A stretch of DNA of 64,000 bases from Magnetococcales bacterium (lineage in GTDB: Bacteria; Pseudomonadota; Magnetococcia; Magnetococcales; JADFXB01). Position 1 is the first letter of the stretch, and each line of letters starts with the position of its first letter. The position numbers and the translations under genes are program-made. Below the pieces are notes generated by a model that did not search any database, had not been told where the DNA came from, and saw only the letters and a list, made by a program, of their open reading frames with translations. Shown here piece by piece: positions 1 through 56,049 of the stretch. Location: contig JADFXB010000005.1 in the NCBI GenBank assembly GCA_015233935.1, forward strand, positions 4,070 through 68,069, written 5' to 3'.

Positions 1-100
1 CCATGCGCCACAGAAGAAGGGCAGCAAAAACCGGCACCCCTTGCAGAATGGCCAGCAGGGGAATGGGGGAGTGGGTATGCCAGGCGATTTCTGCAATCAT
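1..100 (-). CDS. 5' end of an unnamed hydrophobic protein gene (partial, runs off the left edge); fourth, translationally coupled gene of the DabA operon
   Basis: ATG at 100-98 shares one base with the TGA stop (102-100) of the upstream gene (TGATG). My reverse-complement translation is MIAEIAWHTHSPIPLLAILQGVPVFAALLLWRM..., open to the window edge. It resembles the first helix of NuoM/N-type subunits, but only 33 aa are visible. Confidence 0.4.
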   Translation of the reverse strand, partial: MIAEIAWHTHSPIPLLAILQGVPVFAALLLWRM

Positions 101-1635
101 CAAAGAATCACCGCAAAAGTCAAAAAGACCAGCAAAACCACGTAGCGTGGTTGTGCCAACAGTTTATCCAACCGTTGCAGCACCTCCCCCAAACGGTGAA
201 GGTGATGGACCAGTCCCTGACCACCCATGGGCAGGATTAAGTGGTTTTCCAGCCAATCGCAGGCCGCCGAGGCTTGGGCGATGACTCCCCCGGCAAGGCC
301 CCAACCTTCCACTGGTTGTATTCTGTCGCTGTCAGCGGGGGAGATGGCTTGGTGGGTACGGGGATCGGGTTTGCCGGTCAAGCGGTCGATCACCTGATTG
401 TCAAAACCTACCACATCCCGTGCCAGCCGATAGGTGGGACGTACCAGCAGGGCATTGGCCAAGTGGTCGAGCCAGAAGCGTTGCAAGGCGGCGTTGAACC
501 AGGTCCCGCGCACGGCCAGCAGGGGAATGACCGGGCGGGTGGGGCGGGTAAGCTGGTGCATATAGGAGGGGGCTTGCAAAAACTGGTAGAGCCGCCAGAC
601 CGCATGGGCTGCCATATGCCAGGTAGCCAACTGGAACCAGCCCAGCCCGCACTCCACCACCATGAGACCCACCTGGGTTTGGGTTGCCAACACCAGGGCA
701 CTTTTTACATCGGTTTGCACCAGGGCCACCCACACACTGTAGAGGACCGTCAAGCCGCCCAATAAGACTAACGCACTCATCAAAATAGGAAATTGTTTCA
801 ACAAAGGTTCCAGGCGCAGCAACAAAAAGATGCCCGCATGGACCATGAGGGAGCCATAGAAGATGGCACTGGAGGGGGTGGGACCTTCCAGGGCACGTCC
901 CAGCCAGGAGACAAAGGGAAATTGTCCCGATTTGACCAGAGCGGCCAGGATGAAACAGCCGGTGATCATGCCCAGACGCAAGATATCCAGCCGGTTGTTG
1001 GCAAAGGCCAGGTCATGCCAGTTGACATCTCCCAGCCACCACAGGGCCAGGGTGTTGGCCAGGATGAAACCGGCATCGCCAAAGCGGTTGGTGATAAATA
1101 CCTGGCTGGCGTTGCGACTGGCGGTCTCCCGTTGGCGGTCGAAACCAATAAGCAGATAGGAACTGATACCCATCATCTCCCAACCCACAAAGGCCACCAC
1201 CCCGTTGCCCGCCAGGACAAACCATAACATGCCGCTGGTAAAGAGGGAGAGGATGGCGAAAAACCGATGGTAGCCTTCTTCCCGATGGAGATATTGGATG
1301 GAAAATCGCAGGGTGAGCCAGGCCAATAGGGCAATCATGGTTGCGGCGGTGAGGGCCATGCGATCCAGGGTGAGCATGAGGGGAATATGGGTGGTCCCGC
1401 TGTGCAGCCAGGTGGCAATGTACAGGGGGCCGGTAAAATCTCCCCGCCATGCCGCCAACAGGTCCAACAGAAGGAGCAACAGCAGGGAGCTGCCACATCC
1501 CCATTGGGTCACCCGACTGGTGAAGGCTTCACCCGCTTCACCCACCAGGCGTCCGCTGATCATCTCCAGAAAAAGCCACAGGGCCGCTGCCAGAGGGAGA
1601 ATGGGCACCAACAGGGCAAGGATAGGTTCAAACAT
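100..1635 (-). CDS. NuoL/MnhA/NdhF-family proton-conducting membrane subunit (PF00361-type), DabB-like partner of DabA
   Basis: ORF 100..1683 is polytopic with an antiporter-like core (GWEMMGISSYLLIGF, SSAIFYGSLMVHAGIFLLLR, TQTQVGLMVVECG). I place the start at ATG 1635 (GGGAGG 6 nt upstream, MFEPILALLVPILPL), which overlaps the dabA stop by 8 nt. The track start 1683 would overlap by 56 nt. Confidence 0.85.
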   Translation of the reverse strand: MFEPILALLVPILPLAAALWLFLEMISGRLVGEAGEAFTSRVTQWGCGSSLLLLLLLDLLAAWRGDFTGPLYIATWLHSGTTHIPLMLTLDRMALTAATMIALLAWLTLRFSIQYLHREEGYHRFFAILSLFTSGMLWFVLAGNGVVAFVGWEMMGISSYLLIGFDRQRETASRNASQVFITNRFGDAGFILANTLALWWLGDVNWHDLAFANNRLDILRLGMITGCFILAALVKSGQFPFVSWLGRALEGPTPSSAIFYGSLMVHAGIFLLLRLEPLLKQFPILMSALVLLGGLTVLYSVWVALVQTDVKSALVLATQTQVGLMVVECGLGWFQLATWHMAAHAVWRLYQFLQAPSYMHQLTRPTRPVIPLLAVRGTWFNAALQRFWLDHLANALLVRPTYRLARDVVGFDNQVIDRLTGKPDPRTHQAISPADSDRIQPVEGWGLAGGVIAQASAACDWLENHLILPMGGQGLVHHLHRLGEVLQRLDKLLAQPRYVVLLVFLTFAVIL

Positions 1636-4600
1636 GGGAGGCCTCCCCGATGAGTGCAGGGGGCAGGGGATCCTGGTGTCCATGATACCAGCTCATGGAG
1701 TTGGCCACCCGAGGTGGTGGGGGTAGATCTTCCTGCCAGGGTTGCCATCCCTTGCCTGGCTGATAAAATTCAATCTGCCGGTTGTCCGGGTGGAGGGAGG
1801 CCAGGAGAAGCCAGCCGTGCTCCACCAATTCCCGGATGGCCGCCTGTCTTTCACAGATGGCGGTCAGCACTTGCGGGGTGTGTTCCACCACCACCAAAAG
1901 ACGCATGGCTTCGTGAATTTCGATCATTTGTTTGGGCAGACCGGTGCGTAAATCGGAGGCGGTGCCCTCCATCACCCCGAAGAGTCCCACCACATTGTGG
2001 GTAATCTTGCTGCCACAGCCAAAGCGTTGGTTGTCTACGGTGGAAAAATAATATTCCAGGTTGATGCCAGCTCCCACCGGTCCCACCGCCAGCAGGATGG
2101 ATTCCAGAATGGTTCCTTGCCGATCCTGTTGGGGGTCGTAGGAAATCAAGTACATGCGCCGGTCAAAAAAGGTGCCACGGGTGGTGGAGCGTCTGCCTAC
2201 CAGGGCGACGGCATTGGTGGCATGTCCCAACTCCGGGCGGGCCTGGCTGAAATCCAGGGCGCGTCCCTGCATATGGAGGAGGGCCTGGGACAGGGAGGGG
2301 TGACGGGGCGCGGAGGCCAGGCGGCGGCAGCGTTCATGGGCCGAGGCTTCCCTGGCCTGGTTGAAGATGGCCAGCAGGGGTTGCAACCCTTCTTGTTGTT
2401 GGGGAGAGAGTTGCTCCAGATCATACCATTGGATGGTTTCATCCCCCGTATTGTGTTCGGCTCCCAGAAAGCGGCAATCGGCGGGAATATTAATGCCCTT
2501 CTCGGCCAACAGGGAACGAACCTCTGGGCGATTGGCCATGGCGGCGAAAACCCTGGCATTGGGGCCACCGTGGCGACCGCTGCATGCCCCGCAATCATAG
2601 GCTGCCAGGTGGGGATTGTTGCGACTCATGGAGCCGTGTCCCAAGAGAATCACCCAGGGGGCAAAGGTGTGGGTCATTCCCATGATGCGGAGGAGGGTTT
2701 CCACCCGTTGGGCTTGTTCTTCATCACTGAATCCCAGCATCACTGCCTTGTCGGATGGGGGGGTGGAGCGGTTCAAGGTAAGGGTAGTGGATAGAGAAAG
2801 ATCGATTTTTTGGACCATCCTTTCCAGCCAGGAACCGGTTTGCCGGGGCGAGAGGATGCGGGCGATGGTCAGGAAAAAGGCCAGGGGGGCGGCCAGCAGG
2901 GTGAGCAGGGTCGCGGTCACCACGCCACGACGGCTGCCCTGGTTTAAAAATTCCAGGGCGTTTAATCGGGTACGACGCCGTTTGCGGTGCTGTTGATAGC
3001 GATCCTGTTGATCTTCTTTGGGTATTTCATGGATGGCATGGCGGGGGGTGACCACGATGGGGCACAAGGCCACTTCCTTTTCATCATCCAGACCCCGCCA
3101 ATAGATGGGTACGCCAAAAAATCCTGCCGCGCCAAAGGTTTCCACTGAAGGGGCGATTTCTTCCAAATGACGGCGAAATCCCTCCTCCCGATCATCCATG
3201 CAAAAAACCGCCTGCAAGCTGGGACGCTTGCTCGTCTGTTCCTTTTGTCCACCGTGACGGATGGCATTGAAAATGGACTGCCGATAGGTGCGTTCGTAGG
3301 CTTGCAGCCAGATCATTCCCATGGTTTCGTCATCAAGACGATCCAGACAGGCGAGAATTTTTTGCAGGGGTTCTTCTCGCAGACGGTGGAGTTCTCTGGC
3401 GGAAAGGCCCAAATGTTGGGCCAAGCGAAACAGGGGCCAAATGCGATGGCAGACCCAATCATTGGAAAGTCCCTCCGCCCGCATCCCTTGCCGATATCGC
3501 CAGATGCCGTAGGCCAATTGGGTCCACAGCAGTTCGTCCACTGTGGTCTCTTCTGCCCTGGCCACCATGGCTTGGCAGGGGGTGGCGAGTGATTCGGGCA
3601 GGGATTCGTTGAAGAGGGTATGGCGCACCATAAATTCCGCTTCCCGGTGGCGGAAATGGTTGTAGAGAATATCCAGTCGTGGCTCTTCCTGCCAAAGATG
3701 GTGGCAGATCCGATGGAGATGAAGGCGTTCCAGCAGCAAGCGGACGGCCAAATAATCGGCAAAGTGGACCCTGGGCAGTCCTGCATATCCTTCATGGTGG
3801 TGTCGCCACAAGACCATGCCGGACCAGCCGGGCAATTCCAGGGCAAGGGCTTCCAGGTAGGAGATCCAAAGCTCTTCGGCCACCCCTGAACGACGGAGGG
3901 CCTCTTGCAGGGTTGCCACCGCATCTTCTGGAAAGCTGGTGATCTCTTCCCGCCAGGTGGGCATCTCTTCGGGTAAAAAGGCCAGGTCATGGAGAGCGGC
4001 TTGTCGCCAGGCGGCATAGAAACCCTGTTTGCGGGCAGGGTGGTGCCAGGCGGCCAGTCCGTGGTCGAGAAAGGAGGCCAGATGGCTTTGCAGGTTGGTT
4101 TTGCCCTCTTCCAGGGGGGCATGACCGGTCAACCGTTGCACGAGACCGCCCAGGGTAATTTCCCGTCCCACCTGTTGGAAGAGGCGTTCCATGGTGCGTC
4201 TGGCTTCGTGGCGGGGTTGCCCTTGCCACAGGACATCTTCCAGGGGTTCGTGGCTGATCAGGGGGTGGGGTGGGGGTGGCAGCAGGTGATGGCAGGCACT
4301 CCACAGTTGGGCAATGGCCACCTCTTCCACCGCGTCGGCGGAGTGGAGCAGGCGATGGCGGATGGTTGGGGGGACATCGGCCTGAAAGGTTTCTCCGGCC
4401 CGCAACTCATGGATTTGCCAAGCCAGTTGGTCTGGCTTTAAGGGGGAGAGGTCGTGGATCAAGGCGGTTGCGTAGATATCCGCCTGCTTAAGGGGACCAT
4501 CATCCAGGAAGGCCAAGTGTTCCTCGGCCAGCAACTCGGTGCGAGAGAAAATTTCTTCCCGCAGGGCTTCGGGGATGATACGACCTTTTTGGTAGAGGGC

Positions 4601-4816
4601 GCGGGATTGCTCCAGGGGCAGAAATCCGTAGATTCCCGTCTCTTTACGTACCTGGCGCAGGGCTTCTTCAAAGGGTAAATGCTGATAGCCGTGCAGGGTA
4701 TTGTGGTGGACAAAATCCCGAATGGGAGCCTGGCCGGGTAGCCGATGGGTGAGATGGTGAAACAGGTGTTCCAGCCGGTGGTTAAATGAGGTGGCATGAT
4801 CGGACATGTTCATCAC
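1628..4816 (-). CDS. dabA: DUF2309/PF10070 protein, DabA-type (beta-carbonic-anhydrase-like subunit of DIC-accumulating complexes)
   Basis: 1062-aa soluble protein with the N-terminal PIRDFVHHNTLHGY signature of DUF2309. It has the CxDxR motif FCMDDR (C539/D541/R543, nt 3188-3202) and GHGS...YDCGAC (H727, C742/C745, nt 2582-2638). Start GTG 4816 or ATG 4813 overlaps the stop of the upstream gene. Confidence 0.9.
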   Translation of the reverse strand: MMNMSDHATSFNHRLEHLFHHLTHRLPGQAPIRDFVHHNTLHGYQHLPFEEALRQVRKETGIYGFLPLEQSRALYQKGRIIPEALREEIFSRTELLAEEHLAFLDDGPLKQADIYATALIHDLSPLKPDQLAWQIHELRAGETFQADVPPTIRHRLLHSADAVEEVAIAQLWSACHHLLPPPPHPLISHEPLEDVLWQGQPRHEARRTMERLFQQVGREITLGGLVQRLTGHAPLEEGKTNLQSHLASFLDHGLAAWHHPARKQGFYAAWRQAALHDLAFLPEEMPTWREEITSFPEDAVATLQEALRRSGVAEELWISYLEALALELPGWSGMVLWRHHHEGYAGLPRVHFADYLAVRLLLERLHLHRICHHLWQEEPRLDILYNHFRHREAEFMVRHTLFNESLPESLATPCQAMVARAEETTVDELLWTQLAYGIWRYRQGMRAEGLSNDWVCHRIWPLFRLAQHLGLSARELHRLREEPLQKILACLDRLDDETMGMIWLQAYERTYRQSIFNAIRHGGQKEQTSKRPSLQAVFCMDDREEGFRRHLEEIAPSVETFGAAGFFGVPIYWRGLDDEKEVALCPIVVTPRHAIHEIPKEDQQDRYQQHRKRRRTRLNALEFLNQGSRRGVVTATLLTLLAAPLAFFLTIARILSPRQTGSWLERMVQKIDLSLSTTLTLNRSTPPSDKAVMLGFSDEEQAQRVETLLRIMGMTHTFAPWVILLGHGSMSRNNPHLAAYDCGACSGRHGGPNARVFAAMANRPEVRSLLAEKGINIPADCRFLGAEHNTGDETIQWYDLEQLSPQQQEGLQPLLAIFNQAREASAHERCRRLASAPRHPSLSQALLHMQGRALDFSQARPELGHATNAVALVGRRSTTRGTFFDRRMYLISYDPQQDRQGTILESILLAVGPVGAGINLEYYFSTVDNQRFGCGSKITHNVVGLFGVMEGTASDLRTGLPKQMIEIHEAMRLLVVVEHTPQVLTAICERQAAIRELVEHGWLLLASLHPDNRQIEFYQPGKGWQPWQEDLPPPPRVANSMSWYHGHQDPLPPALIGEASHV

Positions 4817-6279
4817 CCCAATGTATCAAATATTTTAATAAAATCACGGACGGATGATTCCATGATTTTGAGGAGGGGGGAGGGAAATAACCCCAAAAGA
4901 AAGGTGAGCAGGACCGGAATGGCCAGGGTAGCCAGCTCAAAGCCGGACATATCCTTGACGATCACCGGATTGGGTTGGGGGGAGGGGGTGAGCATGCGAG
5001 CCGTGGTGCGGAAGGCATAGGAGGCGGTGATCAACATGGCGATGGCGGTGAGAATGACCGGCCAGCCCCAGCGTTGATAGGTGCCGATGATGGTATGTAA
5101 TTCAGCGATAAAACCCGCCGTGGTGGGCAGCCCGATGGTGGTGAGAAAGGCCAGGATGATGAAAAAGGCAAAACGGGGGGAAAGGCGGGCCAAATCTCCA
5201 TAATAGGCGATTTCCCGACTGTGGGTACGGTGGTAGAGCATGCCTGCCAACATGAAGAGGGCGGCGGCGGCCAGGCCGTGGGCCACCATTTGGCTCACTG
5301 CGCCGGTGATGCCAGCCGGGGTGAGGGTGGCCAGTCCCAGGAGGACGATGCCCATGTGGCTGACCGAGGAGTAGGCCACCATTTTTTTCAAATCGGTTTG
5401 TCGCCAGGCCAGCAATCCCCCGTAGAGCAGACTGACCAAGGCCAGGATGCCCAGAATATGGGCGAGGGTGGCCATGCCATGGGGGGCCAGGATGGCAGCG
5501 CGCATGAGACCGTAGGAACCCATTTTCAGCAACACCCCCGATAACAGCATACTCACTGGGCTGGGGGCTTGGACGTGGGCCAGGGGCAACCAACCGTGCA
5601 TGGGAAAAATGGGCATTTTGACGCCAAATCCCATAAGCAACCCCAAAAAGATCCATACTTGGGTGGCGTGGGGCGTTTGCCGCAAACTGATGGCCATTTC
5701 ATCCATGGCGAAGGTGAAACCGTGGGAGGCGTCGAAGGCCAGCAGCAGGCTGAGCAACATGAAGACCGAACCGCCCAGGGTGTAGAGGACAAAGTTGAGG
5801 GCAGCATGTTGCCGTTTTTCGCCGCCCCAGCGGTCCACCAGCAGGAACAGGGGGATAAGGGTAAGCTCCCAGAAAATATAAAAAAGCAACCAGTTTTGGG
5901 CGATAAAGACTCCCAGCATGGCCATTTCCAGAAGCAACATGGCCACGTAGTAGCCTTTTTGTCGCTCTTCGATGGTGTGGGAGGCCAGCATGGCGACAAA
6001 GGAGAGGGTGGCTGCCAGGAGGACCAGGGGCAAGGAAAGTCCGTCCACCCCTACCAGATAGGTTCCGCCCGCCTGGAGATTCCAAAAACCATTCTCCAGT
6101 AACTGTACGCCCGATAGGGTGGGGTCGAACTGACCAACCAGCAGGCAGGCAAACAACAGGGTGATTGCGGAAAAAATCAGGGCCAGGGGACGACTATGGC
6201 TTCCCCAATGTTGTGGCAGAAAGGCGATGAGCAGGCTGCCACAAAGAGGCGTGAGCAAGAGTAGGGTGAGCAGTTTCAT
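4813..6279 (-). CDS. NuoM/NdhD/MnhD-family proton-conducting membrane subunit (second PF00361-type protein of the operon)
   Basis: 488-aa polytopic protein with motifs PMHGWLPLAHVQAPSPVSMLLSGVLLKMGSYGLMR and DLKKMVAYSSVSHMG, typical of subunit M/4. Stop TGA 4813-4815 overlaps the dabA start. Confidence 0.9.
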   Translation of the reverse strand: MKLLTLLLLTPLCGSLLIAFLPQHWGSHSRPLALIFSAITLLFACLLVGQFDPTLSGVQLLENGFWNLQAGGTYLVGVDGLSLPLVLLAATLSFVAMLASHTIEERQKGYYVAMLLLEMAMLGVFIAQNWLLFYIFWELTLIPLFLLVDRWGGEKRQHAALNFVLYTLGGSVFMLLSLLLAFDASHGFTFAMDEMAISLRQTPHATQVWIFLGLLMGFGVKMPIFPMHGWLPLAHVQAPSPVSMLLSGVLLKMGSYGLMRAAILAPHGMATLAHILGILALVSLLYGGLLAWRQTDLKKMVAYSSVSHMGIVLLGLATLTPAGITGAVSQMVAHGLAAAALFMLAGMLYHRTHSREIAYYGDLARLSPRFAFFIILAFLTTIGLPTTAGFIAELHTIIGTYQRWGWPVILTAIAMLITASYAFRTTARMLTPSPQPNPVIVKDMSGFELATLAIPVLLTFLLGLFPSPLLKIMESSVRDFIKIFDTLG

Positions 6280-6462
6280 GGGGTGATGACAGGACTTCCT
6301 GCAAGGGAAGAAGGGGAAAGAAAAATCCTCTTGATTTTATCCAAACCAAGTCCGGGTTTCCACCCATTTTGATGTAAATTTTTTTATAAGGATGGTTGCC
6401 AGTTGGTTTTGAGAGGAGTAGAGTGCAGGACTCCGAGAGAGACATATAAAAAAGGGTGATCC

Positions 6463-7485
6463 ATGCCGTGGTTTGTACCGCTGGTTTTCGGGTCAAGTAT
6501 GCCTGCCAACGAGAAGGAAGAAGACAACATGCGCTGGGGAAAATGGCTCTGGGGAGTGGGGCTTCTGGCCCTGCTGGTTTGGTGGATGGAACCCACCTTG
6601 GCAGCAGAGGCTGCCGCGCCCGCTGGAGGTGGGCAGGACAACATGCCCTGGTGGGGCTGGGCGTTGGCTTTGTTTGTGGTGACCTTCTTTTTGGGTATTG
6701 TGGCAGTTTTAGGTGGTGTGGGTGGTGGTGTGTTGTTCGTCCCCATAGTCGGTGGTTTCTTTTTCCCCTTTCATCTAGACTTCGTCCGTGGCGCGGGTTT
6801 GCTGGTGGCGTTAGCTGGAGCACTGGCAGCCGGGCCTGGTCTACTCAAAAGCGGCATGGCCAATCTACGGCTCGCCCTTCCCCTTGCCCTCATCGCCTCC
6901 TCCTCCGCCATCGTGGGTGCCATGATGGGTCTGGCTCTCAAACCGCAAGTGGTGCAAATCTGCCTGGGGGTGACCATTCTTGGTATTGTTGCCTTGATGT
7001 GGAGTGCCAAAAAATCGGAGCGTCCAGACGTGCCGATGGCGGATCCCATTTCCTCTGCTTTGGCCATCAATGGTGTTTTTTATGATGCGGCCAGCAAGCA
7101 GGAGATTGACTGGAAGGTTCATCGCACCCCTATTGGTATGGGGCTGTTTGTGATCATAGGTATCATGGCGGGTATGTTTGGTCTGGGTGCGGGCTGGGCC
7201 AATGTGCCGGTGCTCAACCTGGTGATGGGTGCCCCCCTCAAGGTTTCGGTGGCCACCAGTAAATTCATGCTCTCCATTGTGGACACTTCGGCGGCTTGGG
7301 TTTATCTTAATCAGGGTGCGGTCATTGCCATGATTGCCATCCCGTCCATTCTGGGCATCATGCTGGGTTCCTTGATCGGGGTGCGGTTGCTGTCTCGGGT
7401 GAATGCTTCGGTGGTGCGCAAGGTGGTGATTATCATGCTGCTCTTGGCTGGTGGACGCGCCCTCATGAAGGGATTGGGATTCTGA
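6463..7485 (+). CDS. TauE/SafE-family (DUF81) anion exporter-like membrane protein
   Basis: About 8 TM segments with two Gly-rich half-repeats (GGVGGGVLFVPIVGG and MFGLGAGWANVPVLNLVMG). An alternative start ATG 6529 (MRWGKWLW...) is equally plausible. Confidence 0.8.
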   Translation: MPWFVPLVFGSSMPANEKEEDNMRWGKWLWGVGLLALLVWWMEPTLAAEAAAPAGGGQDNMPWWGWALALFVVTFFLGIVAVLGGVGGGVLFVPIVGGFFFPFHLDFVRGAGLLVALAGALAAGPGLLKSGMANLRLALPLALIASSSAIVGAMMGLALKPQVVQICLGVTILGIVALMWSAKKSERPDVPMADPISSALAINGVFYDAASKQEIDWKVHRTPIGMGLFVIIGIMAGMFGLGAGWANVPVLNLVMGAPLKVSVATSKFMLSIVDTSAAWVYLNQGAVIAMIAIPSILGIMLGSLIGVRLLSRVNASVVRKVVIIMLLLAGGRALMKGLGF

Positions 7486-7507
7486 TTGACTGACAAGGAG
7501 ACTTTCC

Positions 7508-7933
7508 ATGGCTTATGATGCGGGTCCTAATCCCCATGTTTCGGAAGAGCAACTCACCTATGCCCGTTGGTTGGAAGTGGGCTGGAAGGTGGGCTTTTTG
7601 ATGATGGTGCTGTTTTTCTTTCTCTATGCCTCCGGCATTGTGCCTCCCCATATTCCTCTTAACGAGTTGACCAACTATTGGGGCAAACCGGCTTCCGAAT
7701 ATTTGGTTGCCGCCAATTTGCATACTGGCTGGTCGTGGGTTTATCTCACGGGCAAGGGAGATTTTCTCAACTTTGTGGGCATCGCCTTTTTGGCGTTGGT
7801 CACCTCGTTGTGTTTTTTGCGCCTGATTCCTGTTTTTATCGCCAAGCAGGATAAGGTTTATACCATCCTGGTCCTTATCGAGACGGTGGTCCTCGCCCTG
7901 GCAGCTTCGGGAATTCTTGCTGCCGGCCATTAA
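7508..7933 (+). CDS. DUF1634-like small membrane protein (usual partner of TauE/SafE genes)
   Basis: 141 aa with 3-4 TM segments. The C-terminal pattern GIAFLALVTSLCFLRLIPVFIAKQDKVYTILVLIETVVL resembles DUF1634. It lies 22 nt downstream of the TauE-like gene. Confidence 0.55.
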   Translation: MAYDAGPNPHVSEEQLTYARWLEVGWKVGFLMMVLFFFLYASGIVPPHIPLNELTNYWGKPASEYLVAANLHTGWSWVYLTGKGDFLNFVGIAFLALVTSLCFLRLIPVFIAKQDKVYTILVLIETVVLALAASGILAAGH

Positions 7934-7952
7934 TCAACAGGAGGAAGAGATA

Positions 7953-8798
7953 ATGACCGCACAGTTGTCTCCCACTGGACGTTTTGAAAAGCTGCTTTTG
8001 GCCTCTGATGGGACCGAATATACGGAGAGTGCCCAAAAAATCGCCCTGGCCATGGCCAAATTGACCGGGGCCAAACTGGTGGCCATGCGCATGGTTCTCT
8101 CCAATCCTGAGTATGACTCCCTGGTTCCGGATATGGCGGTCAGGATGGAGATGGCCGCTTATGATTCCCTGTTGGGTATTACGGCGGAAGGGGAAAAACT
8201 GGGTGTCACGTGTACCCCCATGGTGATGCATGGTTCCAATCCCCATGAGGATATCATTGAGGCGGCGGAAAAGGTTGGGGCGGATGTCATCGTTATGGGA
8301 CGGCGGGGCAGTCGTGGTCTTGCCCGTCTTATGTTGGGGGATGCCACGGCGCGGGTGGTGGCCCAGGCCCATTGCCAGGTTTTGGTGGTCCCGCGCATGA
8401 CCCAGTTGTGGAGCCATCGCATTTTGTTGGCCACCGATGGTTCCCGTTACAGTGACAGTGCAGCGGTGAGTGCCATTCAACTGGCCAAGCTTTCCAATCT
8501 GCCCTTATTGATCATGACCGCCTGCCCCAATCCGGGCAATGATTCGGTTTGTCGTGAATCGGAACAGGTGATCTCCCGCCTCATGGAACATGCTTCTCAG
8601 CGGGGGGTGATGGCTGAATCCATGTTGGTGGAGGGGGATCCGGTGCAGGCCATTCTGGACACGGCGGCCAAGCGGGGTGTGGATTTAATCGTGGGTGGCA
8701 GCCATGGCCGTACCGGTATGGAAAAGGTTTTTCTGGGCAGTGTGATGGAGCGGGTAATGGGTAAGGCCACTTGCCCGGTGTTAACCGTTAAGGGTTGA
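7953..8798 (+). CDS. Tandem-domain universal stress protein (UspA family)
   Basis: Two Usp domains each end in the G-x2-G-x9-G(S/T)-type motif (VIVMGRRGSRGLARLMLGDATARVV; LIVGGSHGRTGMEKVFLGSVMERVM). ATG 7953 is preceded by AGGAGGAAG. Confidence 0.9.
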   Translation: MTAQLSPTGRFEKLLLASDGTEYTESAQKIALAMAKLTGAKLVAMRMVLSNPEYDSLVPDMAVRMEMAAYDSLLGITAEGEKLGVTCTPMVMHGSNPHEDIIEAAEKVGADVIVMGRRGSRGLARLMLGDATARVVAQAHCQVLVVPRMTQLWSHRILLATDGSRYSDSAAVSAIQLAKLSNLPLLIMTACPNPGNDSVCRESEQVISRLMEHASQRGVMAESMLVEGDPVQAILDTAAKRGVDLIVGGSHGRTGMEKVFLGSVMERVMGKATCPVLTVKG

Positions 8799-8822
8799 TC
8801 CTTGCTTATTAAATGTCTCTGC

Positions 8823-8860
8823 AACCCCCTGGCAATTTTCGTTGTCAGGGGGTTTTGTTT
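8823..8860 (+). terminator. Rho-independent terminator after the usp gene
   Basis: 9-bp stem AACCCCCTG (8823-8831) / CAGGGGGTT (8846-8854) followed by TTTTGTTT. Confidence 0.6.
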
Positions 8861-8895
8861 ATCTGTTTCGTCTGAATGTTGTGAAAGGGAAGGTC

Positions 8896-9522
8896 ATGAT
8901 GCTGCCTTTGGTGGTGCGTCCTTATGCCCAACCCCAAATGATCAAAGAGATTCCCTTTCCGCCACAGGTGCGCTTTGGGCAAATTTTGGTGTTGGGACCG
9001 CCTGGCGTGGGAAAAAGCACCTTGATCCAACGCCTCGGGGGTTGGATGGAAGAAGGCCATCTGGATTTGGCCGATCCTTTTTGGTGGCGCAGCCGAGCCT
9101 TGACCTATACCCCACGAGAGGTCCATCTTTATCTGCCGTTTATGGGGAGAACCGCATCCCTGGCCGTCTACTCCCCGGATTGGTTGTCCGCTCCCACCCC
9201 CATCGATTTTGCCCGCATCCGCATTCCCCCACCACGGGATGGCCTGTTTGCCGTGGATTGGCGCAATAAATTTGTCTTTGACTTTATTCTGCCACCGGTG
9301 GAACAGGTGTTGGCCTGGCGGGAAGAGCGGGCCAGACAGGGAACCCACCTGGTGGATGAGGAACTTTCAAGAGAACAGGTGCAGGTGCAATTATTAATTT
9401 TCTGGAATATTGCCAAACATTTGCATCGGTGTGGTCTCCTGGTCTATTTGCGCACTGCTTGGGATCAAATACCCCTGGAGATACTGGATACCATGGACTA
9501 TCCCTTCTCCCCTATGGAGTGA
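8896..9522 (+). CDS. Hypothetical P-loop NTPase
   Basis: Walker A GPPGVGKST (nt 8995-9021). I recognise no other family signature. The start is set at ATG 8896 because the track start 8842 lies inside the upstream terminator hairpin. Confidence 0.7.
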   Translation: MMLPLVVRPYAQPQMIKEIPFPPQVRFGQILVLGPPGVGKSTLIQRLGGWMEEGHLDLADPFWWRSRALTYTPREVHLYLPFMGRTASLAVYSPDWLSAPTPIDFARIRIPPPRDGLFAVDWRNKFVFDFILPPVEQVLAWREERARQGTHLVDEELSREQVQVQLLIFWNIAKHLHRCGLLVYLRTAWDQIPLEILDTMDYPFSPME

Positions 9523-22687: not shown

Positions 22688-24682
22688 TTGATGGTTCAAT
22701 ATATAACAAGAATTATTGTCATGATGAAAGGTTGGCAGCGGGCCGGGTTGCTGCTGGTGCTCCTCCTGCTGGGGGCTGTGGCCACGGCTGGTTGGGGACA
22801 GGAAGCCCTGCTTGGTCTGTTGCTGGTGGCCATCCTGCTGGGCTGGTGGCAAGGCTGGCAGTTGACCAAAGAGGCCGCCCAACAAGAACGCAGCAATCGG
22901 GCCATCATCCATCGCTTGCTGGAAACCGCTTTACAAACCATGCCGGTTCATCAGCAATTAGATACTCTACTGGATATTTTGTTTACAACCAGCCAGTTTG
23001 ATTTTATCCGCAAGGGGGGGTTCTATCTGCTGGCCGAAGAAAACGATACCCTGCTGCTGGCCGCCCAGCGGGGGTTTGAAACAGAAATGGTCCACCGTTG
23101 CAGTGCCATCAAAAGCGGCCACTGCCTGTGCGGTCGCGCCTGGCAGAATAAAGAGGGACTCTATCTGGCGCGGGTGGAAGATTTGCAATCTGCTGGCGGG
23201 GATCTCTCCCGCCAATATGGCATCTATTGCCAACCCCTGCTGAAAGAGGGGCATGTTTTTGGCCTGCTCACCCTCTACGTGACGGCAGGCCACCGCTTCA
23301 CCAGCCAGCAACAGGAATTTTTGCACACCCTGACCATGACCGCCGTCTCCCTGATGGAAAAGGCGCGGCTGGAAGAAAAAATTCGTCAACAAGCCCAGTA
23401 TGATCCCCTCACCGGCTTGCCCAATCGCGCCCTCTTCCTGGATCGTCTCTCCCAATCCCTGGCCCACGCCCAACGCAACAATGGGGAGGTGGTGGTGATG
23501 ATTCTGGACGTGGATCATTTTAAACAGATCAACGACTCCATGGGCCATACAGTAGGGGACGCCCTGTTGAAGGAGGTGGCCACACGACTGCTCACCGTGG
23601 TACGCAATACCGATACGGTGGCCCGCCTGGGCGGGGATGAGTTCACCATTATTTTACCCAAATTGACCCACCTGTTTTATGTGGAATATGTGGCCCGCCG
23701 CCTGCTGGATGGTTTGCGCCAGCCCATGGAGTTGGCGGGAGCCAGTTTTACCATCACCGCCAGCATGGGCGTCACCGTCTTTCCCCACGATGGTCGGGAT
23801 GTGGAAGCCTTGTTGAAAAATGCGGACAACGCCATGTATACCGCCAAAGATCAAGGGCGGGACGGTTTTCGCTTTTTCTCCGAAGAGATGGGCAGCAAGG
23901 CGTTGGAAAGGCTGGCCCTGGAACAGGCGGTGAAACGGGGATTGGAGCAGGGAGAGTTTATCGCCTATTACCAACCCAAGGTGCATTCAGATGGCCATGT
24001 GGTAGGGATGGAAGCCCTGGTGCGCTGGCAACGACCGGAGGTGGGATTGTGTTATCCGGGAGATTTCATCCCCTTTGCCGAACAAAGCGGTTTGATCGTT
24101 GCCCTGGGAGAACGCATGTTGGAACTGGCGTGTCAACAAGCCAGGGAGTGGCAGTTGGCGGGATTGGGAGATTTGGCGGTTTCTGTCAATCTGTCCGCCC
24201 GTCAGTTGCGACTGGGGGATAAGTTGATTGGACAAGTGGAACGCATTCTTCAACAAAGCGGCCTGCCTCCCCAATTGTTGGAACTGGAGGTGACGGAAAG
24301 CATGATGATGGAAAATTTGTCGGAGGTGCGCCAATTGTTGGAAAGGATTCGAGATTTGGGGGTCAAACTCTCCATTGACGATTTTGGCACCGGCTACTCC
24401 TCCCTGAGCGTCTTGCGCCATCTGCCTATTCAAACCATCAAGATTGACCGCAGCTTTGTGCGGGGGGTGGATTTGGATGGAGACTCCCGCATTCTGGTCT
24501 CCGCCATCATTGCCATGGCCCGTCAATTGGGATTGGCCGTGGTGGCGGAAGGGGTGGAAAGCCTGGAAGAAAAAGAAATCATCGTTGCCGAAGGCTGCCA
24601 GGTGATTCAAGGCTACTACTACAGCAAACCCGTCGCACCGGAACGCTTCGCCGACTACGTGCGCCAGCAAAATTTTGCCTGA
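22688..24682 (+). CDS. Membrane-anchored GAF-GGDEF-EAL protein (both catalytic domains look intact)
   Basis: GAF-like segment (CLCGRAW...GLLTLYV), then GGDEF (ARLGGDEFTIIL). The EAL domain has EALVRW, DDFGTGYSS, KIDRSFV, EGVE and QGYYYSKP. The start may be 22688, 22691 or 22721. Confidence 0.9.
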   Translation: MMVQYITRIIVMMKGWQRAGLLLVLLLLGAVATAGWGQEALLGLLLVAILLGWWQGWQLTKEAAQQERSNRAIIHRLLETALQTMPVHQQLDTLLDILFTTSQFDFIRKGGFYLLAEENDTLLLAAQRGFETEMVHRCSAIKSGHCLCGRAWQNKEGLYLARVEDLQSAGGDLSRQYGIYCQPLLKEGHVFGLLTLYVTAGHRFTSQQQEFLHTLTMTAVSLMEKARLEEKIRQQAQYDPLTGLPNRALFLDRLSQSLAHAQRNNGEVVVMILDVDHFKQINDSMGHTVGDALLKEVATRLLTVVRNTDTVARLGGDEFTIILPKLTHLFYVEYVARRLLDGLRQPMELAGASFTITASMGVTVFPHDGRDVEALLKNADNAMYTAKDQGRDGFRFFSEEMGSKALERLALEQAVKRGLEQGEFIAYYQPKVHSDGHVVGMEALVRWQRPEVGLCYPGDFIPFAEQSGLIVALGERMLELACQQAREWQLAGLGDLAVSVNLSARQLRLGDKLIGQVERILQQSGLPPQLLELEVTESMMMENLSEVRQLLERIRDLGVKLSIDDFGTGYSSLSVLRHLPIQTIKIDRSFVRGVDLDGDSRILVSAIIAMARQLGLAVVAEGVESLEEKEIIVAEGCQVIQGYYYSKPVAPERFADYVRQQNFA

Positions 24683-27422: not shown

Positions 27423-28044
27423 TTTTTTCCACGAACAACCCCTCTGGGACCAAGGTTTCCGCTTCGTCTGTGGTGTGGACGAAGTGGGACGTGGTCCGTT
27501 GGCTGGACCGGTGGTGGCGGCTGCGGTGGTTTTTCGCCAACCGCAGCCCATTACCGGGCTGGACGACTCCAAACGCTTGACCCTCCCCCAACGTCGCGCC
27601 CTGCTTCCCCTCATTCAGCACCAGTGCTGGCATGCCATCGCCTTGGCTTCCGTTTCCGAAATTGATCGTCTCAATATTCGTCAGGCTGCCTTGCTGGCCA
27701 TGTCCCGTGCGGTAGCCCAACTTGCTTGCCAGGTGGATTTTGTCCTGGTGGATGGTCGGGATCTCCCAGTCGGTCTGCCTTGTCCTGGTAAGGCGGTGGT
27801 GGGAGGGGATGGCAGCAGCCAGTCCATTGCTGCCGCCTCCGTGTTGGCCAAACTCTACCGGGATGATCTTATGATTCAACTGGATCGGGAATATCCTGGT
27901 TATGGCTGGCAAGGCAATGCAGGCTATCCCACCGCCCAGCATCGACAGGCCCTCCAGCAATTGGGAATCACCCCCCACCATCGCCGCTCCTTTGGACCGG
28001 TGCGTCAACTGTTGAATACCCTGCCCCTTCAGGATGAAGACTGA
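27403..28044 (+). CDS. rnhB: Ribonuclease HII
   Basis: [20 protein letters not shown] and DDSKRLT motifs. There is no in-frame ATG after the rplS stop, so GTG 27403 (20-nt overlap with rplS) is proposed. Confidence 0.88.
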
Positions 28045-29186
28045 CGGTTTTCCCACTGGCCGCCGTAGGTCTGGCGTATATAGTCCAAGGTGGGTTGAAA
28101 GCCCATGTTATAGAGAATGTGATCCCGTTCTGCCAAAGAGCGCAGGTCGGGTTCGTCGGTCACCCGTCGCCAGACGTTGGGGGGGATGGCTTTGGGAAAG
28201 TTCCAGGCGCATAACCAGCGTACCACGGATCGATTAAAGCTGTCGCAGATCAGGTCAGCGTCGGCCTTGACCACTTCGTTGCGCACTTGTTTGTGCACAT
28301 CCGCCTTGTATTGACCGCCGGAGGCATCGGTGGTCATGGATTGGGAGAGGACCACTTTGGCGATGGCCGAGTTCATGCGGTCCAGCAGAAGATCATAGGT
28401 CACCTGACCGCCACGGGAGGCTTCCAGCAGTTCCACCTGCATCCCTTCCGGCAGGATGATGCCGGAATCGGTTTGGATGGCCCGCATGGCTTGCAGGAGT
28501 TTGCGCTTTTCCTCTTCGGTGGCGTGGGCCGGGTAGGTGCCTTTGGCGGTGGGCATGCCAAACTTGTCCAGGTAGATCAACCATAATTTCAGGGAATTTC
28601 GTTTGAATTGAACGGGCCAGTAGAGCCAGTGGGCGAGGCCCATGCCGTAGGGGTCGTCGTCGTGATCCACCCCGTTACGAAAGTGCCAAAATTTTTGCGC
28701 GGGCATTTCCTGGCCGCTTTGGCCGCTGGTATCCAGGAGGATCAGGGTCCCCAGTTTATTGAAGCCGAAGCGGCGTTGGCGGCGAACTTTGATATCGTGG
28801 AGGATCACTTGGTTGTTTTGCCGGGACCACAGGCATTCGGCGATGGCGTAGCCGTAGAAGAGGCCGTAGAGCATGCGGTCGGTGATGCTGTCCCAGGATA
28901 GGCGGTTGAGGGTTTCGGTGAGAAAATCGGCGGCTTTGCGGCTTTCTTTGTCGTCGGCACCGGGGGTGACGCCCCATTCGGAGGAGGTGACGGCGAGACG
29001 GCGTTGTTGGAAGGTGGAGGCGACCTGGTCGTCCCGGAGAATTTCTTCGTAGCTGGCGTAATCGCCGCCTTTGCCGGAGAGAATGGGGTCTTGGGGGAGG
29101 AGGAGGTTGTTACGGGTGAAGGTGGATTGTCCCGTGGCGGGGGAGAGTTCTTGTTGCAGGATGGACCAGTCTTCCCGGATGGTCAT
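28029..29186 (-). CDS. DUF935 / phage Mu gp29-like portal protein homologue (orphan)
   Basis: [31 protein letters not shown]...ADFLTETL...[16 protein letters not shown] matches the DUF935 portal family as I remember it. It is 385 aa, and no other phage gene is adjacent. Confidence 0.65.
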
Positions 29187-55308: not shown

Positions 55309-56049
55309 ATGAAAGGTGGCTTCAACATATTGATCGTGGAAGACGATCCCGTTACACAATCCAGCCTGAAATCGTGCTTTGAAAAAGACGGTTTCCGGGT
55401 GAAAACCGCCTCCGATGGCGTCGAAATGCGCAATGTCCTGAAAAAAGGTGCCTTCGACGTGGTTATCATGGATGTGGGACTGCCAGGTGAAGATGGCTTC
55501 TCCCTCACCCAACAATTACGGGTCCTCTCCCGTATCGGCATCATCATCCTAAGCGGTATGTCGGAAAATTCCGACCGGGTGGTCGGCCTGGAACTGGGTG
55601 CCGATGACTACATCGTCAAACCCTACAACGAACGGGAACTTCTCCTGCGGGTACGCAACCTGCTGGCCCGGCTCAACATGACCAGCCGTGATAAATCCGA
55701 AGAAATGCGCTTCGGCCCCTGGGTCCTCCATCCAGAAAACAAACGGGCCGTACACGATAAAGGCCATCAGGTGGAACTCACCCACGGCGAAACCAACTTG
55801 CTCCACGCCCTGGCCCGCCGCCCCGGTCGTGTCCTGAGTCGCCAACAATTGCTGGATGCCATCAGCGGTCGCGATTGGCAGCCCAGCGACCGCACCGTGG
55901 ATGTTCTGGTCCGCCGCCTGCGTGGCAAACTGGAAGAAGATTCCAGCAAACCCCGCCTCCTGTTGACTGTCCATGGCGTCGGCTACCAGCTCTCCCTGCG
56001 GGGCGGGCGTCCTGGCGATTGGCTGCCCGACCTGCGCAATAATTATTGA
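55309..56049 (+). CDS. OmpR/PhoB-family response regulator (TorR/ArcA-like)
   Basis: REC (ILIVEDDPV...VVIMDVGLPGEDG...IILSG) plus a winged-helix domain (VELTHGETNLLHALARRPGRVLSRQQLLD...DRTVDVLVRRLRGKLE). AGGAG lies upstream of ATG 55309. Confidence 0.92.
   Translation: MKGGFNILIVEDDPVTQSSLKSCFEKDGFRVKTASDGVEMRNVLKKGAFDVVIMDVGLPGEDGFSLTQQLRVLSRIGIIILSGMSENSDRVVGLELGADDYIVKPYNERELLLRVRNLLARLNMTSRDKSEEMRFGPWVLHPENKRAVHDKGHQVELTHGETNLLHALARRPGRVLSRQQLLDAISGRDWQPSDRTVDVLVRRLRGKLEEDSSKPRLLLTVHGVGYQLSLRGGRPGDWLPDLRNNY

What the first reader, a model, noticed from the sequence alone, without database searches (positions are those of the whole stretch)
1..6279. DabA (DUF2309) flanked by two different complex-I antiporter-like subunits in a four-gene, fully overlapping operon
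DAB/Mps-type inorganic-carbon pumps are described as two-component: DabA (PF10070) plus one PF00361 membrane subunit. Here the minus-strand order is NuoM/NdhD-like (6279-4813), DabA (4816-1628), NuoL/NdhF-like (1635-100), then a fourth hydrophobic ORF starting at 100. Every junction overlaps: GTGA/TGATG at 4813-4816, 8 nt at 1628-1635 and TGATG at 98-102. That pattern suggests stoichiometric co-translation of one complex. An L-like subunit, an M-like subunit and a soluble carbonic-anhydrase-like subunit form the same parts list as the cyanobacterial NDH-1MS CO2-uptake module (NdhF3/NdhD3/CupA), but built around the unrelated DabA. This may be a larger, convergently organised vectorial carbonic anhydrase that has not been characterised. 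No other nuo or mrp genes are visible on the right side.
Basis: partly seen in the sequence, partly recalled or inferred. Interest (0 to 1): 0.75.

Follow-up and report, generated by a model that had tools for sequence, protein, structure and literature searches.

The report
Five-subunit DabA CO2-pump operon
The window's left end holds most of a widely conserved five-gene operon that joins a carbonic-anhydrase-like DabA protein to four complex-I-type ion-channel subunits. It is a larger, experimentally untested relative of the known two- and three-part bacterial CO2 pumps.

Summary
On the minus strand lie a NuoM-like gene (6279-4813), a 1062-aa DabA (4816-1628), a truncated NuoL-like gene (1635-100) and the first 33 codons of a fourth membrane gene. 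All junctions overlap.

In 41 of 51 testable related loci the order is M1-DabA-L-M2-M3. These loci come from Magnetococcales, methanotrophs, Nitrosomonas, Nitrotoga, Accumulibacter, Dechloromonas, Thiothrix and others. That is one DabB-like L subunit plus three NuoM-like subunits, with no other nuo or mrp genes.

- **M1 and M3** keep every canonical proton-path residue tested except one histidine in M3.
- **M2** is remodelled.
- **L** keeps the TM5 Glu that the three compared characterised-type DabB/MpsA proteins lack.
- **DabA** keeps the zinc site, but belongs to a large "His-type" lineage. It differs from the structurally solved DAB1 and DAB2 at the Leu-to-His active-site position, the finger glutamate and one coupling-motif glutamate.

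Best reading: an ion-gradient-driven vectorial carbonic anhydrase with a complex-I-like multi-channel membrane arm.

The extra NuoM genes beside DabA were noted in passing in 2017 (COGNAT), but I found no functional or structural study. Verdict: a new variant of a known kind, of moderately high interest.

The parts
4813..6279 (-). M1: full-length NuoM-type antiporter-like subunit (488 aa), first gene of the operon
   Evidence: PF00361 at 234 bits and TIGR01972 at 476 bits; it misses every NuoM equivalog cut-off. Best PDB hit is NdhD1 6hum_D at 276 bits. E. coli NuoM E144, K234, K265, H322, H348 and E407 correspond to window E138, K221, K252, H308, H334 and E393. These are conserved in 64-66 of 66 orthologs.
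1628..4816 (-). DabA (1062 aa): cytoplasmic beta-carbonic-anhydrase-like subunit of the His-type lineage
   Evidence: PF10070 at 816 bits. PDB DabA2 9rd0_A scores 269 bits. Zn-site residues C539, D541, R543, H727 and C742 are invariant in 73 of 73 orthologs.
2843..2935 (-). DabA residues 628-658: the only strongly hydrophobic stretch in DabA (RR-GVVTATLLTLLAAPLAFFLTIAR). It is the counterpart of the membrane-inserting finger/elbow hairpin of DabA2 and DabA1.
   Evidence: Hydropathy scan and alignment. AF2 predicts helices 601-627, 633-655 and 657-671. There is no acidic residue where DabA2 has the essential Glu444.
2222..2224 (-). DabA His865 codon, in the motif DFSQARPELGH. It occupies the position of DabA2 Leu658 and T. 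albus DabA Leu825.
   Evidence: His in 73 of 73 orthologs and in 107 of 120 database homologs, the rest being unreadable. The position is Leu in DabA2, a Nitrobacter DAB1-type DabA and a Staphylococcus MpsB. Papers.
100..1635 (-). L: DabB-like subunit (511 aa). NuoL-type TM1-11 followed by a divergent C-terminus of amphipathic helices and one terminal hydrophobic helix.
   Evidence: PF00662 plus PF00361. The AF2 model has pLDDT 83.5. Foldseek to NuoL/ND5 covers ~355-377 columns with TMq 0.61-0.66 and rmsd 1.7-4.0 A. NuoL E144, R175, D178, K229, D303, H334 and H338 correspond to window E153, R184, D187, K235, D309, H340 and H344. H254 is Tyr260 and K342 is Arg348.
1..100 (-). First 33 codons of gene 4, the start of M2 (a remodelled NuoM-type subunit). 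The rest of M2, and by orthology a fifth gene M3, lie beyond the window edge.
   Evidence: The N-terminus MIAEIAWHTHSPIPLLAIL resembles the M2 N-termini of L002 and L003. M2 and M3 both pass TIGR01972. M2 follows L in nearly all related loci.
6334..6362 (-). Promoter-like site upstream of M1 (TGGAAA-17-TAAAAT). Weak consensus match only.
   Evidence: It lies in the 183-nt divergent intergenic region between M1 and the TauE gene (6463-7485, + strand).

Best explanation
The locus encodes one membrane complex of the DAB (DabA/DabB, 'vectorial carbonic anhydrase') family with an enlarged, complex-I-like membrane arm.

Proposed parts and roles:
- DabA is a cytoplasmic Zn beta-CA-like enzyme that hydrates CO2 to bicarbonate. 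It docks on L through a membrane-inserted hairpin.
- L is a DabB-type subunit made of NuoL TM1-11.
- Three NuoM-type subunits sit beside L. M1 and M3 have complete proton-channel residue sets. M2 has a remodelled set.
- The subunits are linked along a central polar axis, as in the complex I membrane arm.
- Inward flow of H+ (possibly Na+) through more than one channel drives the conformational cycle that makes CO2 hydration one-directional. The complex would therefore spend more ions per CO2 than DAB1 or DAB2. In return it would gain a larger driving force: a higher bicarbonate disequilibrium, or function at low CO2 or low membrane potential.

Shown: the gene content, its conservation, the residue states and the family relationships.

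Inferred: that the five products form one complex, the direction of ion flow, the stoichiometry, and the physiological role in inorganic-carbon supply.
For: 1. The five genes are kept in the same order, with tight or overlapping junctions, in 41 of 51 testable loci across Magnetococcales, Gamma- and Betaproteobacteria. No nuo or mrp accessory genes are present.
2. The DabA catalytic residues are invariant, and the homologous DAB2 and DAB1 are proven pmf-dependent CO2-hydrating pumps.
3. M1 keeps the residues matching NuoM E144, K234, K265, H322, H348 and E407. M3 keeps all of these but H348. M2 keeps an invariant Arg (TM7), Lys (TM8) and a conserved D/H/E set in TM12. This is purifying selection on channel residues, not decay.
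4. L keeps the TM5 Glu and both NuoL ion pairs (58-59 of 59; 119 of 120 database homologs). DabB2 has Ile there, a DAB1-type DabB has Phe and MpsA has Gly. In complex I this Glu sits at the interface with the neighbouring M subunit.
5. There is precedent for an M-position partner. DabC of DAB1 aligns structurally with NuoM helices next to NuoL. A Nitrobacter DabC matches the TM11-14 part of my M3 profile at 29.6 bits, against at most 4.1 bits in 300 shuffles.
6. There is a graded series of relatives: DabA-L-M and SulP-DabA-L-M.
7. Carbon-related neighbours recur. SulP occurs in 6 and beta-CA in 2 of about 45 downstream flanks, and a CA-like sixth gene follows M3 in six Nitrosomonas loci.
Against: - There is no experiment on any member, and I could not model the multimer.
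- Three or four ions per CO2 is thermodynamically extravagant. By my own arithmetic, one H+ at 150 mV is 14.5 kJ/mol, already about a 350-fold disequilibrium.
- This lineage lacks the finger Glu444 that is essential in DAB2 and the Glu704 contact seen in DAB1. It also has His where both have Leu. The coupling mechanism therefore cannot simply be copied from the solved structures.
- L appears to lack TM12-14, so its own outer half-channel is not evident.
- Many hosts are not obligate autotrophs (methanotrophs, Accumulibacter).
- No RuBisCO or carboxysome genes lie in this window.
Confidence: 0.55

Rival explanations
1. The complex is the same, but the extra M subunits do not add to ion stoichiometry. 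They would act as scaffold, assembly or allosteric elements, as proposed for DabC in DAB1. Alternatively they would provide a lateral route to remove the proton released by CO2 hydration, as proposed for NdhF3 in NDH-1MS. Only L would carry the driving ion.
For: - DabC is required but non-conducting in DAB1.
- The single M of three-gene relatives has lost the TM5 Glu and TM8 Lys.
- M2 has moved or changed its canonical residues.
- His865 occupies the position of the proposed proton-shuttle His397 of CsoSCA. This would suit a proton-removal path.
Against: M1 and M3 keep complete or nearly complete canonical channel residue sets in 53-66 of 56-66 orthologs across distant taxa. That is hard to explain for mere scaffolds.
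Confidence: 0.2
2. The machine runs differently from DAB1 and DAB2. One option is a Na+-coupled or Mrp-like cation/H+ exchanger linked to bicarbonate handling, as claimed for MpsAB. Another is an ion-exporting, membrane-potential-generating complex powered by the DabA reaction, as Klimchuk et al. suggested before DabA was understood.
For: - MpsAB has been argued to be Na+-linked and to generate membrane potential.
- The TM12 of M2 carries an unusual invariant Asp/His pair.
- This lineage differs from DAB1 and DAB2 at several functionally probed residues.
- Klimchuk's hypothesis is reported.
Against: - CO2 hydration near equilibrium yields far too little free energy to pump several ions. This follows from standard thermodynamics and is my inference.
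- No MrpB, C, E, F or G genes are present.
- The Zn-site and CxDxR motifs of a hydrating beta-CA are invariant.
Confidence: 0.15
3. There is not one complex. A dabA-dabB pair would merely sit beside paralogous nuoM genes, or the locus would be a fragment of an ordinary nuo or mrp operon.
For: All three M proteins pass the general NuoM subfamily model TIGR01972.
Against: - The M genes bracket dabA-L on both sides with overlapping junctions, and the order is fixed across classes.
- No nuoA-K, nuoN or mrpB-G genes occur in the flanks of the window or of relatives.
- None of the M proteins reaches any NuoM equivalog cut-off.
- In Thiothrix the DabA-L module is duplicated inside the M1...M2-M3 frame.
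Confidence: 0.04

Closest known systems
DAB2 (DabA2-DabB2 of Halothiobacillus neapolitanus; PDB 9rd0; Lo et al. 2026, PMC13144422; Desmarais et al. 2018/2019)
   Same: - PF10070 DabA with a Cys/Asp/His/Cys beta-CA-type Zn site.
- A partner built on NuoL TM1-11 with the Lys229/Asp178 pair and the TM11 His-His motif.
- A hydrophobic hairpin of DabA that enters the membrane.
   Different: - Three extra NuoM-type subunits.
- L keeps the TM5 Glu (Ile151 in DabB2), has Tyr for His254/260 and Arg for Lys342/347, and lacks a recognisable TM12-15.
- DabA has His865 for Leu658 and no counterpart of the essential Glu444.
- The part of DabA before the DabA2-alignable C-terminal region is about 190 aa longer.
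DAB1 (DabA-DabB-DabC heterotrimer, Thermocrinis albus / H. neapolitanus; Phillips et al. 2026 bioRxiv 10.64898/2026.05.01.722082)
   Same: - A third membrane subunit occupies the NuoM position next to the L-like subunit.
- DabA is about 1040 aa.
- The motifs D-x4-RPE-xx-x and NNP-x5-DCGAC are present.
   Different: - DabC is about 250 aa, has no Pfam family and has hydrophobic residues at the proton-path positions. Here there are three full-length M subunits, two with canonical channel residues.
- Gene order differs: DabB-DabC-DabA-PII in Nitrobacter, against M1-DabA-L-M2-M3 here.
- Leu825 becomes His and Glu704 becomes Leu.
COGNAT 'clade C' ybcC operons (Klimchuk et al. 2017, Biol Direct 12:26, PMC5700660)
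   Same: This is probably the same class of loci or one that overlaps it: ybcC (COG3002/DUF2309) upstream of a nuoL homolog, with additional COG1008 (NuoM) and COG0659 (SulP) genes. The authors speculated that more subunits move more ions.
   Different: It is a neighbourhood note only, made before DabA was known to be a CA. It gives no subunit count or order, no residue analysis and no link to DAB function. I could not view their supplementary figure to confirm that the five-gene form is included.
Cyanobacterial NDH-1MS / MS' CO2-uptake module (NdhF3/NdhD3/CupA/CupS)
   Same: - The parts list: an L-type subunit, an M-type subunit and a soluble CO2-hydrating subunit.
- The proposed vectorial CA function.
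   Different: - CupA is unrelated to DabA.
- NDH-1MS is driven by a redox module, and none is encoded here.
- L and the M subunits score better with NuoL/NdhF1 and NuoM/NdhD1 than with NdhF3 or NdhD3.
- There are three M subunits, not one.
Membrane arm of respiratory complex I (NuoL-M-N) and Mrp antiporters (MrpA/MrpD)
   Same: A row of homologous antiporter-like subunits with conserved TM5 Glu, TM7 Lys, TM8 Lys, TM11 His and TM12 Glu/Lys.
   Different: - No NuoH, A, J, K or N, no peripheral arm, and no MrpB, C, E, F or G.
- L is cut after TM11.
- All NuoM and NuoL equivalog cut-offs are missed.

Membership tests
DAB / DAC / Mps family (DabA, PF10070) | A PF10070 protein scoring above the Pfam gathering score | tested here: met
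   816.5 bits against a cut-off of 25, covering profile positions 2-747 of 747.
DAB / DAC / Mps family (DabA, PF10070) | Beta-CA-type Zn site: DabA2 C351, D353, H524 and C539 | tested here: met
   Window C539, D541 (plus R543), H727 and C742 are invariant in 73 of 73 orthologs. These are the criteria used by Scott and co-workers.
DAB / DAC / Mps family (DabA, PF10070) | Co-located in an apparent operon with a PF00361 membrane subunit | tested here: met
   L overlaps the DabA stop by 8 nt. The pairing is conserved in relatives.
DAB / DAC / Mps family (DabA, PF10070) | Energy-coupled accumulation of inorganic carbon, or rescue of CA-free E. coli | not testable with these tools
   This needs an experiment. 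I found no paper testing any member of this lineage.
DAB1/DAB2-type (the structurally solved Leu-type lineage) | Leu at the active-site position of the motif DW-x3-RPEWGL (DabA2 L658, T. albus L825) | tested here: not met
   The window has DFSQARPELGH, with His865. Papers.
DAB1/DAB2-type (the structurally solved Leu-type lineage) | Conserved Glu in the DabA finger/elbow hairpin (DabA2 E444, essential) | tested here: not met
   There is no acidic residue in window residues 628-658. Glu is present in DabA2, the Nitrobacter DabA and the Staphylococcus MpsB. The alignment of this short segment is less certain than that of the other motifs.
DAB1/DAB2-type (the structurally solved Leu-type lineage) | DabB with a hydrophobic residue replacing NuoL Glu144 (Ile151 in DabB2) and with His and Lys kept at NuoL 254 and 342 | tested here: not met
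   L has Glu153, Tyr260 and Arg348.
Respiratory complex I (nuo operon) | NuoM and NuoL orthologs reaching the NCBIfam equivalog cut-offs | tested here: not met
   Best scores are M1 at 384 against 585 and L at 248 against 556. Only the broad TIGR01972 subfamily model is passed. The same holds for M2 and M3.
Respiratory complex I (nuo operon) | Presence of nuoA-K, nuoN or peripheral-arm genes in the operon | tested here: not met
   The window right flank is TauE, Usp and others. Related loci have unrelated genes on both sides. The left flank of this genome itself could not be read.
Mrp (CPA3) antiporter | MrpA/D together with the small subunits MrpB, C, E, F and G | tested here: not met
   None of the 84 downstream neighbour ORFs hit Mrp small-subunit families. 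The best MrpD or MrpA model scores are far below cut-off.
NDH-1MS CO2-uptake module | NdhF3/NdhD3-type subunits plus CupA | tested here: not met
   TIGR01960 (the NdhF3 family) scores 133 against a cut-off of 589. PDB 6tjv_F scores 98 bits against 178 for NdhF1. There is no CupA; DabA is PF10070.

The most novel reading that the evidence does not exclude
The five-gene system would be a redox-free, complex-I-style multi-channel ion motor driving (or driven through) a beta-carbonic anhydrase. It would be the fullest surviving form of an ancestral DAB in which a real NuoM sat beside DabB. DabC of DAB1, and the degenerate single M of three-gene relatives, would then be reduced remnants. With His865 as a proton relay, the proton released by CO2 hydration could be handed to the membrane arm. 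This would give a coupling mechanism and an H+/CO2 ratio unlike those of DAB1 and DAB2. It would also offer a natural minimal model for long-range coupling between antiporter-like subunits.
Probability: 0.3. Interest if true: 0.85.

Novelty: new variant of a known kind. Interest (0 to 1): 0.62.

Why it matters
DAB pumps were only recently understood structurally (two 2026 studies), and both solved forms have a single conducting membrane subunit. A conserved form with four antiporter-like subunits raises several points.

- **Energetics.** It would show that vectorial CO2 hydration can be geared to several ion channels. That would change estimates of the energy cost and the achievable bicarbonate accumulation.
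- **Ecology.** The hosts are key players in the nitrogen, methane, sulfur and phosphorus cycles: Nitrosomonas, Nitrotoga, Methylococcales, Thiothrix and Accumulibacter.
- **Complex I research.** It would give a small, redox-free assembly (L plus three M subunits and a soluble enzyme) in which lateral coupling between antiporter-like subunits could be studied.
- **DabA diversity.** It exposes a large His-type DabA lineage, seen in 85 of 89 readable neighbouring sequence clusters. This lineage contradicts the impression that the active-site Leu is general to DabA.
- **Engineering.** It widens the set of candidate CO2-uptake modules for crops or industrial microbes.

Tried and rejected
1. **Extending the contig leftwards.** Exact-protein look-ups found only a 6.7-kb fragment of the same sequence (L001) that ends inside dabA. 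L, from either start, is not on record. M2 and M3 in this genome are therefore inferred by orthology.
2. **An apparent L-M2 gene fusion in Dechloromonas and Azonexus.** This would have been strong evidence for physical contact. It was an artefact of my ORF overlap filter in high-GC DNA, and separate L ORFs exist.
3. **His865 as a signature of the five-gene form.** Rejected. A two-gene DAB beside the cluster in Methylomicrobium lacus, and most neighbouring DabA clusters, also have His. It marks a lineage, not the architecture.
4. **'M2 is a dead subunit'.** My first reading, from the canonical columns only. Inspection showed conserved displaced or alternative polar residues, so I now call it remodelled.
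5. **Foldseek of the DabA model against the PDB.** It gave only noise. The library copy ends on 2026-04-08 and evidently lacks 9rd0. The model also has pLDDT below 50 at the Zn-site loops.
6. **Rfam scan of 1-9000.** It found no regulatory RNA.
7. **The promoter and terminator scan.** It gave only weak consensus matches.
8. **Literature searches.** Searches for a named multi-subunit DAB (DabD, DAB3 and similar) or for work in Nitrosomonas or methanotrophs found nothing relevant.
9. **A proper phylogeny against NdhF3/D3 and DabB1/2.** It could not be built because those sequences were not retrievable. I used PDB and NCBIfam bit scores and diagnostic residues instead.

Full report
**1. The observation**

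| Gene | Coordinates | Length | Junction |
|---|---|---|---|
| M1 | 6279-4813 | 488 aa | TGA at 4815-4813 overlaps the GTG at 4816; ATG 4813 and ATG 4807 are alternative DabA starts |
| DabA | 4816-1628 | 1062 aa | stop at 1630-1628 |
| L | 1635-100 | 511 aa | ATG 1635 follows a GGGAGG box and overlaps the DabA stop by 8 nt |
| gene 4 | starts 100-98 | 33 codons visible | its ATG shares the A of the L stop TGA (102-100) |

Pfam and NCBIfam confirm the families.
- M1: PF00361 at 234 bits and TIGR01972 (NuoM subfamily) at 476 bits.
- DabA: PF10070 at 816 bits.
- L: PF00662 plus PF00361, matching only the first ~360 positions of the NuoL models.

The right flank holds a divergent TauE gene, then Usp, a phosphoesterase, PHO4 and others. 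There are no nuo or mrp genes.

**2. What the unit really is**

The window's DabA has hundreds of ~1100-aa homologs at 46-53% identity.

Neighbourhoods in Methylocaldum gracile and two Magnetococcales genomes show five genes. The order is PF00361, DabA, PF00662+PF00361, PF00361, PF00361, followed by unrelated genes. Genes 4 and 5 both pass the NuoM subfamily model and score best with NuoM-type chains in the PDB.

I call the genes M1-DabA-L-M2-M3. The 33 residues of the window's gene 4 resemble the M2 N-termini.

A scan of one genome per species returned 80 loci.
- 41 of the 51 testable loci (those with enough flanking sequence) are exactly M1-DabA-L-M2-M3.
- Most exceptions are frameshift splits or close variants.
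- Hosts include Nitrosomonas, Nitrosospira, Nitrotoga, Thiobacillus, Sulfurimicrobium, Accumulibacter, Dechloromonas, Methylomicrobium, Methylobacter, Methylomonas, Thiothrix, Chromatiaceae, Thiodiazotropha and Magnetococcales.

Junctions are short or overlapping throughout. Of 84 downstream neighbour ORFs, none hit complex I or Mrp accessory families. SulP appears six times and beta-CA twice.

I could not extend this genome's own contig. M2 and M3 here are therefore inferred by orthology.

**3. The membrane subunits**

I aligned 55-66 orthologs of each subunit to E. coli NuoM or NuoL, after confirming the reference residue numbers.

- **M1** keeps E144, K234, K265, H322, H348 and E407.
- **M3** keeps all of these except H348.
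- **M2** is remodelled rather than dead.
  - The canonical TM5 Glu column is hydrophobic, but a Glu or Gln sits two columns later in 53 of 55.
  - The TM7 Lys is an invariant Arg.
  - The TM8 Lys is invariant.
  - TM12 reads PGF-D-A-x-H-LLL-E, with Asp in 54 of 55 and His in 55 of 55.
- **L** keeps E144, R175, D178, K229, D303, H334 and H338. It has an invariant Tyr for H254 and an invariant Arg for K342.

Similarity of L to NuoL stops after TM11.
- The AF2 model (pLDDT 83.5) superposes on NuoL/ND5 over ~355-377 columns at 1.7-4.0 A rmsd.
- Residues 365-511 are amphipathic helices of low confidence that end in one hydrophobic helix.
- I read this tail as a possible lateral clamp like the long helix of NuoL. 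That is inference.

**4. DabA**

The window protein aligns to the solved DabA2 (9rd0_A, 269 bits). The Zn ligands and the CxDxR motif are conserved. It has a single hydrophobic hairpin at 628-658, which matches the finger/elbow that enters DabB.

I compared it with DabA2, a DAB1-type DabA from the Nitrobacter hamburgensis plasmid and a Staphylococcus MpsB. All three share the following, and the window protein and its relatives differ.

| Feature | DabA2, Nitrobacter DabA, MpsB | Window lineage |
|---|---|---|
| Active-site motif | RPEWGL | RPELGH (His865) |
| Finger hairpin | conserved Glu | no acidic residue |

The partner subunits differ in the same way.

| Position (NuoL numbering) | Nitrobacter DabB, MpsA | DabB2 (per Lo et al.) | Window L |
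|---|---|---|---|
| TM5 Glu144 | non-acidic | non-acidic (Ile151) | Glu |
| TM8 His254 | His | His | Tyr |
| TM11 Lys342 | Lys | Lys | Arg |

The window protein also has Leu where T. albus DabA has Glu704.

According to the 2026 structures:
- Leu658/Leu825 replaces the usual H-bond donor or proton-shuttle residue;
- Glu444 is essential in DAB2;
- Ile151 in DabB2 replaces the NuoL Glu.

The window system is therefore a DabA/DabB relative, but it does not belong to the characterised Leu-type lineage.

His is not specific to the five-gene form.
- A two-gene DAB next to the cluster in Methylomicrobium lacus shares the His, Glu, Tyr and Arg states.
- Its relatives are common in Methylococcales.
- Of the 148 sequence clusters nearest the window DabA, 85 of the 89 with a readable motif have His.
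- Other His-type loci encode DabA-L-M or SulP-DabA-L-M, with a single, more degenerate M.

**5. Link to DabC**

The 253-aa gene between dabB and dabA on the Nitrobacter plasmid fits the description of DabC. It matches the TM11-14 region of my M3 profile, including the PxxxGF motif but without the Glu. The score is 29.6 bits, against a maximum of 4.1 in 300 shuffles.

This agrees with the report that DabC aligns structurally with the NuoM helices next to NuoL and lacks proton-path residues. An M-type neighbour of the L-type subunit therefore seems to be an old feature of the family. The five-gene operon has it in full, three times.

**6. Mechanism**

I commit, at about 0.55, to one complex in which ion influx through L and at least M1 and M3 drives one-way CO2 hydration by DabA. 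M2 would act as an altered connector or channel, and coupling would run along a central polar axis.

By my own arithmetic, one H+ at 150 mV supplies 14.5 kJ/mol, roughly a 350-fold disequilibrium. Several ions per CO2 would therefore buy very high affinity or irreversibility, or function at low membrane potential, at a high energy price.

That cost, the missing Glu444 and the missing TM12-14 in L are the main reasons for caution. They also keep two rivals alive: that the M subunits act as scaffold or proton-removal path, and that the ion or direction differs.

**7. Novelty**

DAB papers describe two- or three-component systems. Klimchuk et al. 2017 noted ybcC operons with extra NuoM and SulP genes and guessed at multiple ions. 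Nobody appears to have counted, analysed or tested the five-gene form. My library excludes most subscription-journal papers, so this is not proof of absence.

I rate it a new variant of a known kind, interest 0.62.

Noticed in passing
L008:17975-19054 (also L026:9866-10933, L032:17038-18120, L041:16593-17666, L047:17981-19057, L049:12645-13724; L052:12207-13472 on the minus strand): In six Nitrosomonas/Nitrosomonadales loci the gene right after M3 encodes a conserved ~358-aa protein. It carries beta-CA-like motifs (ALKCMDGRL, HRGCRGF) and a borderline Pfam CsoSCA_cat match: 22.7 bits in L008 (cut-off 21.5) and 21.2 bits in L032, just below it. It looks like a divergent carbonic anhydrase attached to the operon.
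   Followed up: partly
L013 and L068 (Thiothrix), about 8.5-23 kb: The DabA-L module is tandemly duplicated inside the operon, giving M1-DabA-L-DabA-L-M2-M3. The two DabA copies score differently against the Magnetococcales reference (about 49% and 40% identity).
   Followed up: partly
L017:3253-7772, minus strand (Methylomicrobium lacus chromosome): A divergent two-gene DAB (DabB about 636 aa, DabA 871 aa) lies immediately upstream of the five-gene cluster. It shares the cluster's His, Glu, Tyr and Arg residue states. Homologs are common in Methylococcales.
   Followed up: partly
L086 (Nitrobacter hamburgensis X14 plasmid 1, 265.7-283.4 kb): A complete DabB-DabC-DabA-PII unit, preceded by a second DabA-PII pair cut by the locus edge, sits next to LysR, cbbL/S, csoS2 and csoSCA. 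It is a textbook DAB1-type carboxysome-linked locus, and I used it as a comparator.
   Followed up: yes
L088:6365-14096 and L089:959-6910: These are three-gene His-type relatives, SulP-DabA-L-M and DabA-L-M. Their single M has lost the TM5 Glu and TM8 Lys but keeps a TM12 acidic residue.
   Followed up: partly
L002:18471-20730 and five other loci: A SulP-family transporter lies within 3 kb downstream of M3 in 6 of about 45 loci. In two loci a beta-carbonic anhydrase also lies there, including Methylocaldum (L002), where the two genes are adjacent.
   Followed up: partly
window 28029-29186 (-): A Mu-like phage portal protein (PF06074, 364 bits). It is a likely prophage or remnant and is unrelated to the finding.
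   Followed up: no
window 22688-24682, 42925-45822, 48286-50625, 56043-58580: A dense set of signalling genes: GAF-GGDEF-EAL, hybrid PAS histidine kinases and an Hpt/receiver protein. No RuBisCO, carboxysome or other carbon-fixation genes were seen in the parts of the window I scanned.
   Followed up: no
L006, L074, L084: Loci carrying this proteobacterial-type operon are labelled as Bathyarchaeota, Synechococcaceae and Bdellovibrio bacteriovorus MAGs. Mis-binning seems more likely than genuine transfer.
   Followed up: no
window DabA residues 735-746, 861-867, 912-968: The AF2 model of DabA is confident overall (pLDDT 77.8). It drops below 50 at the Zn-binding loops and a 57-residue stretch near the active site, the regions that change conformation in the DAB1 structures.
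   Followed up: no
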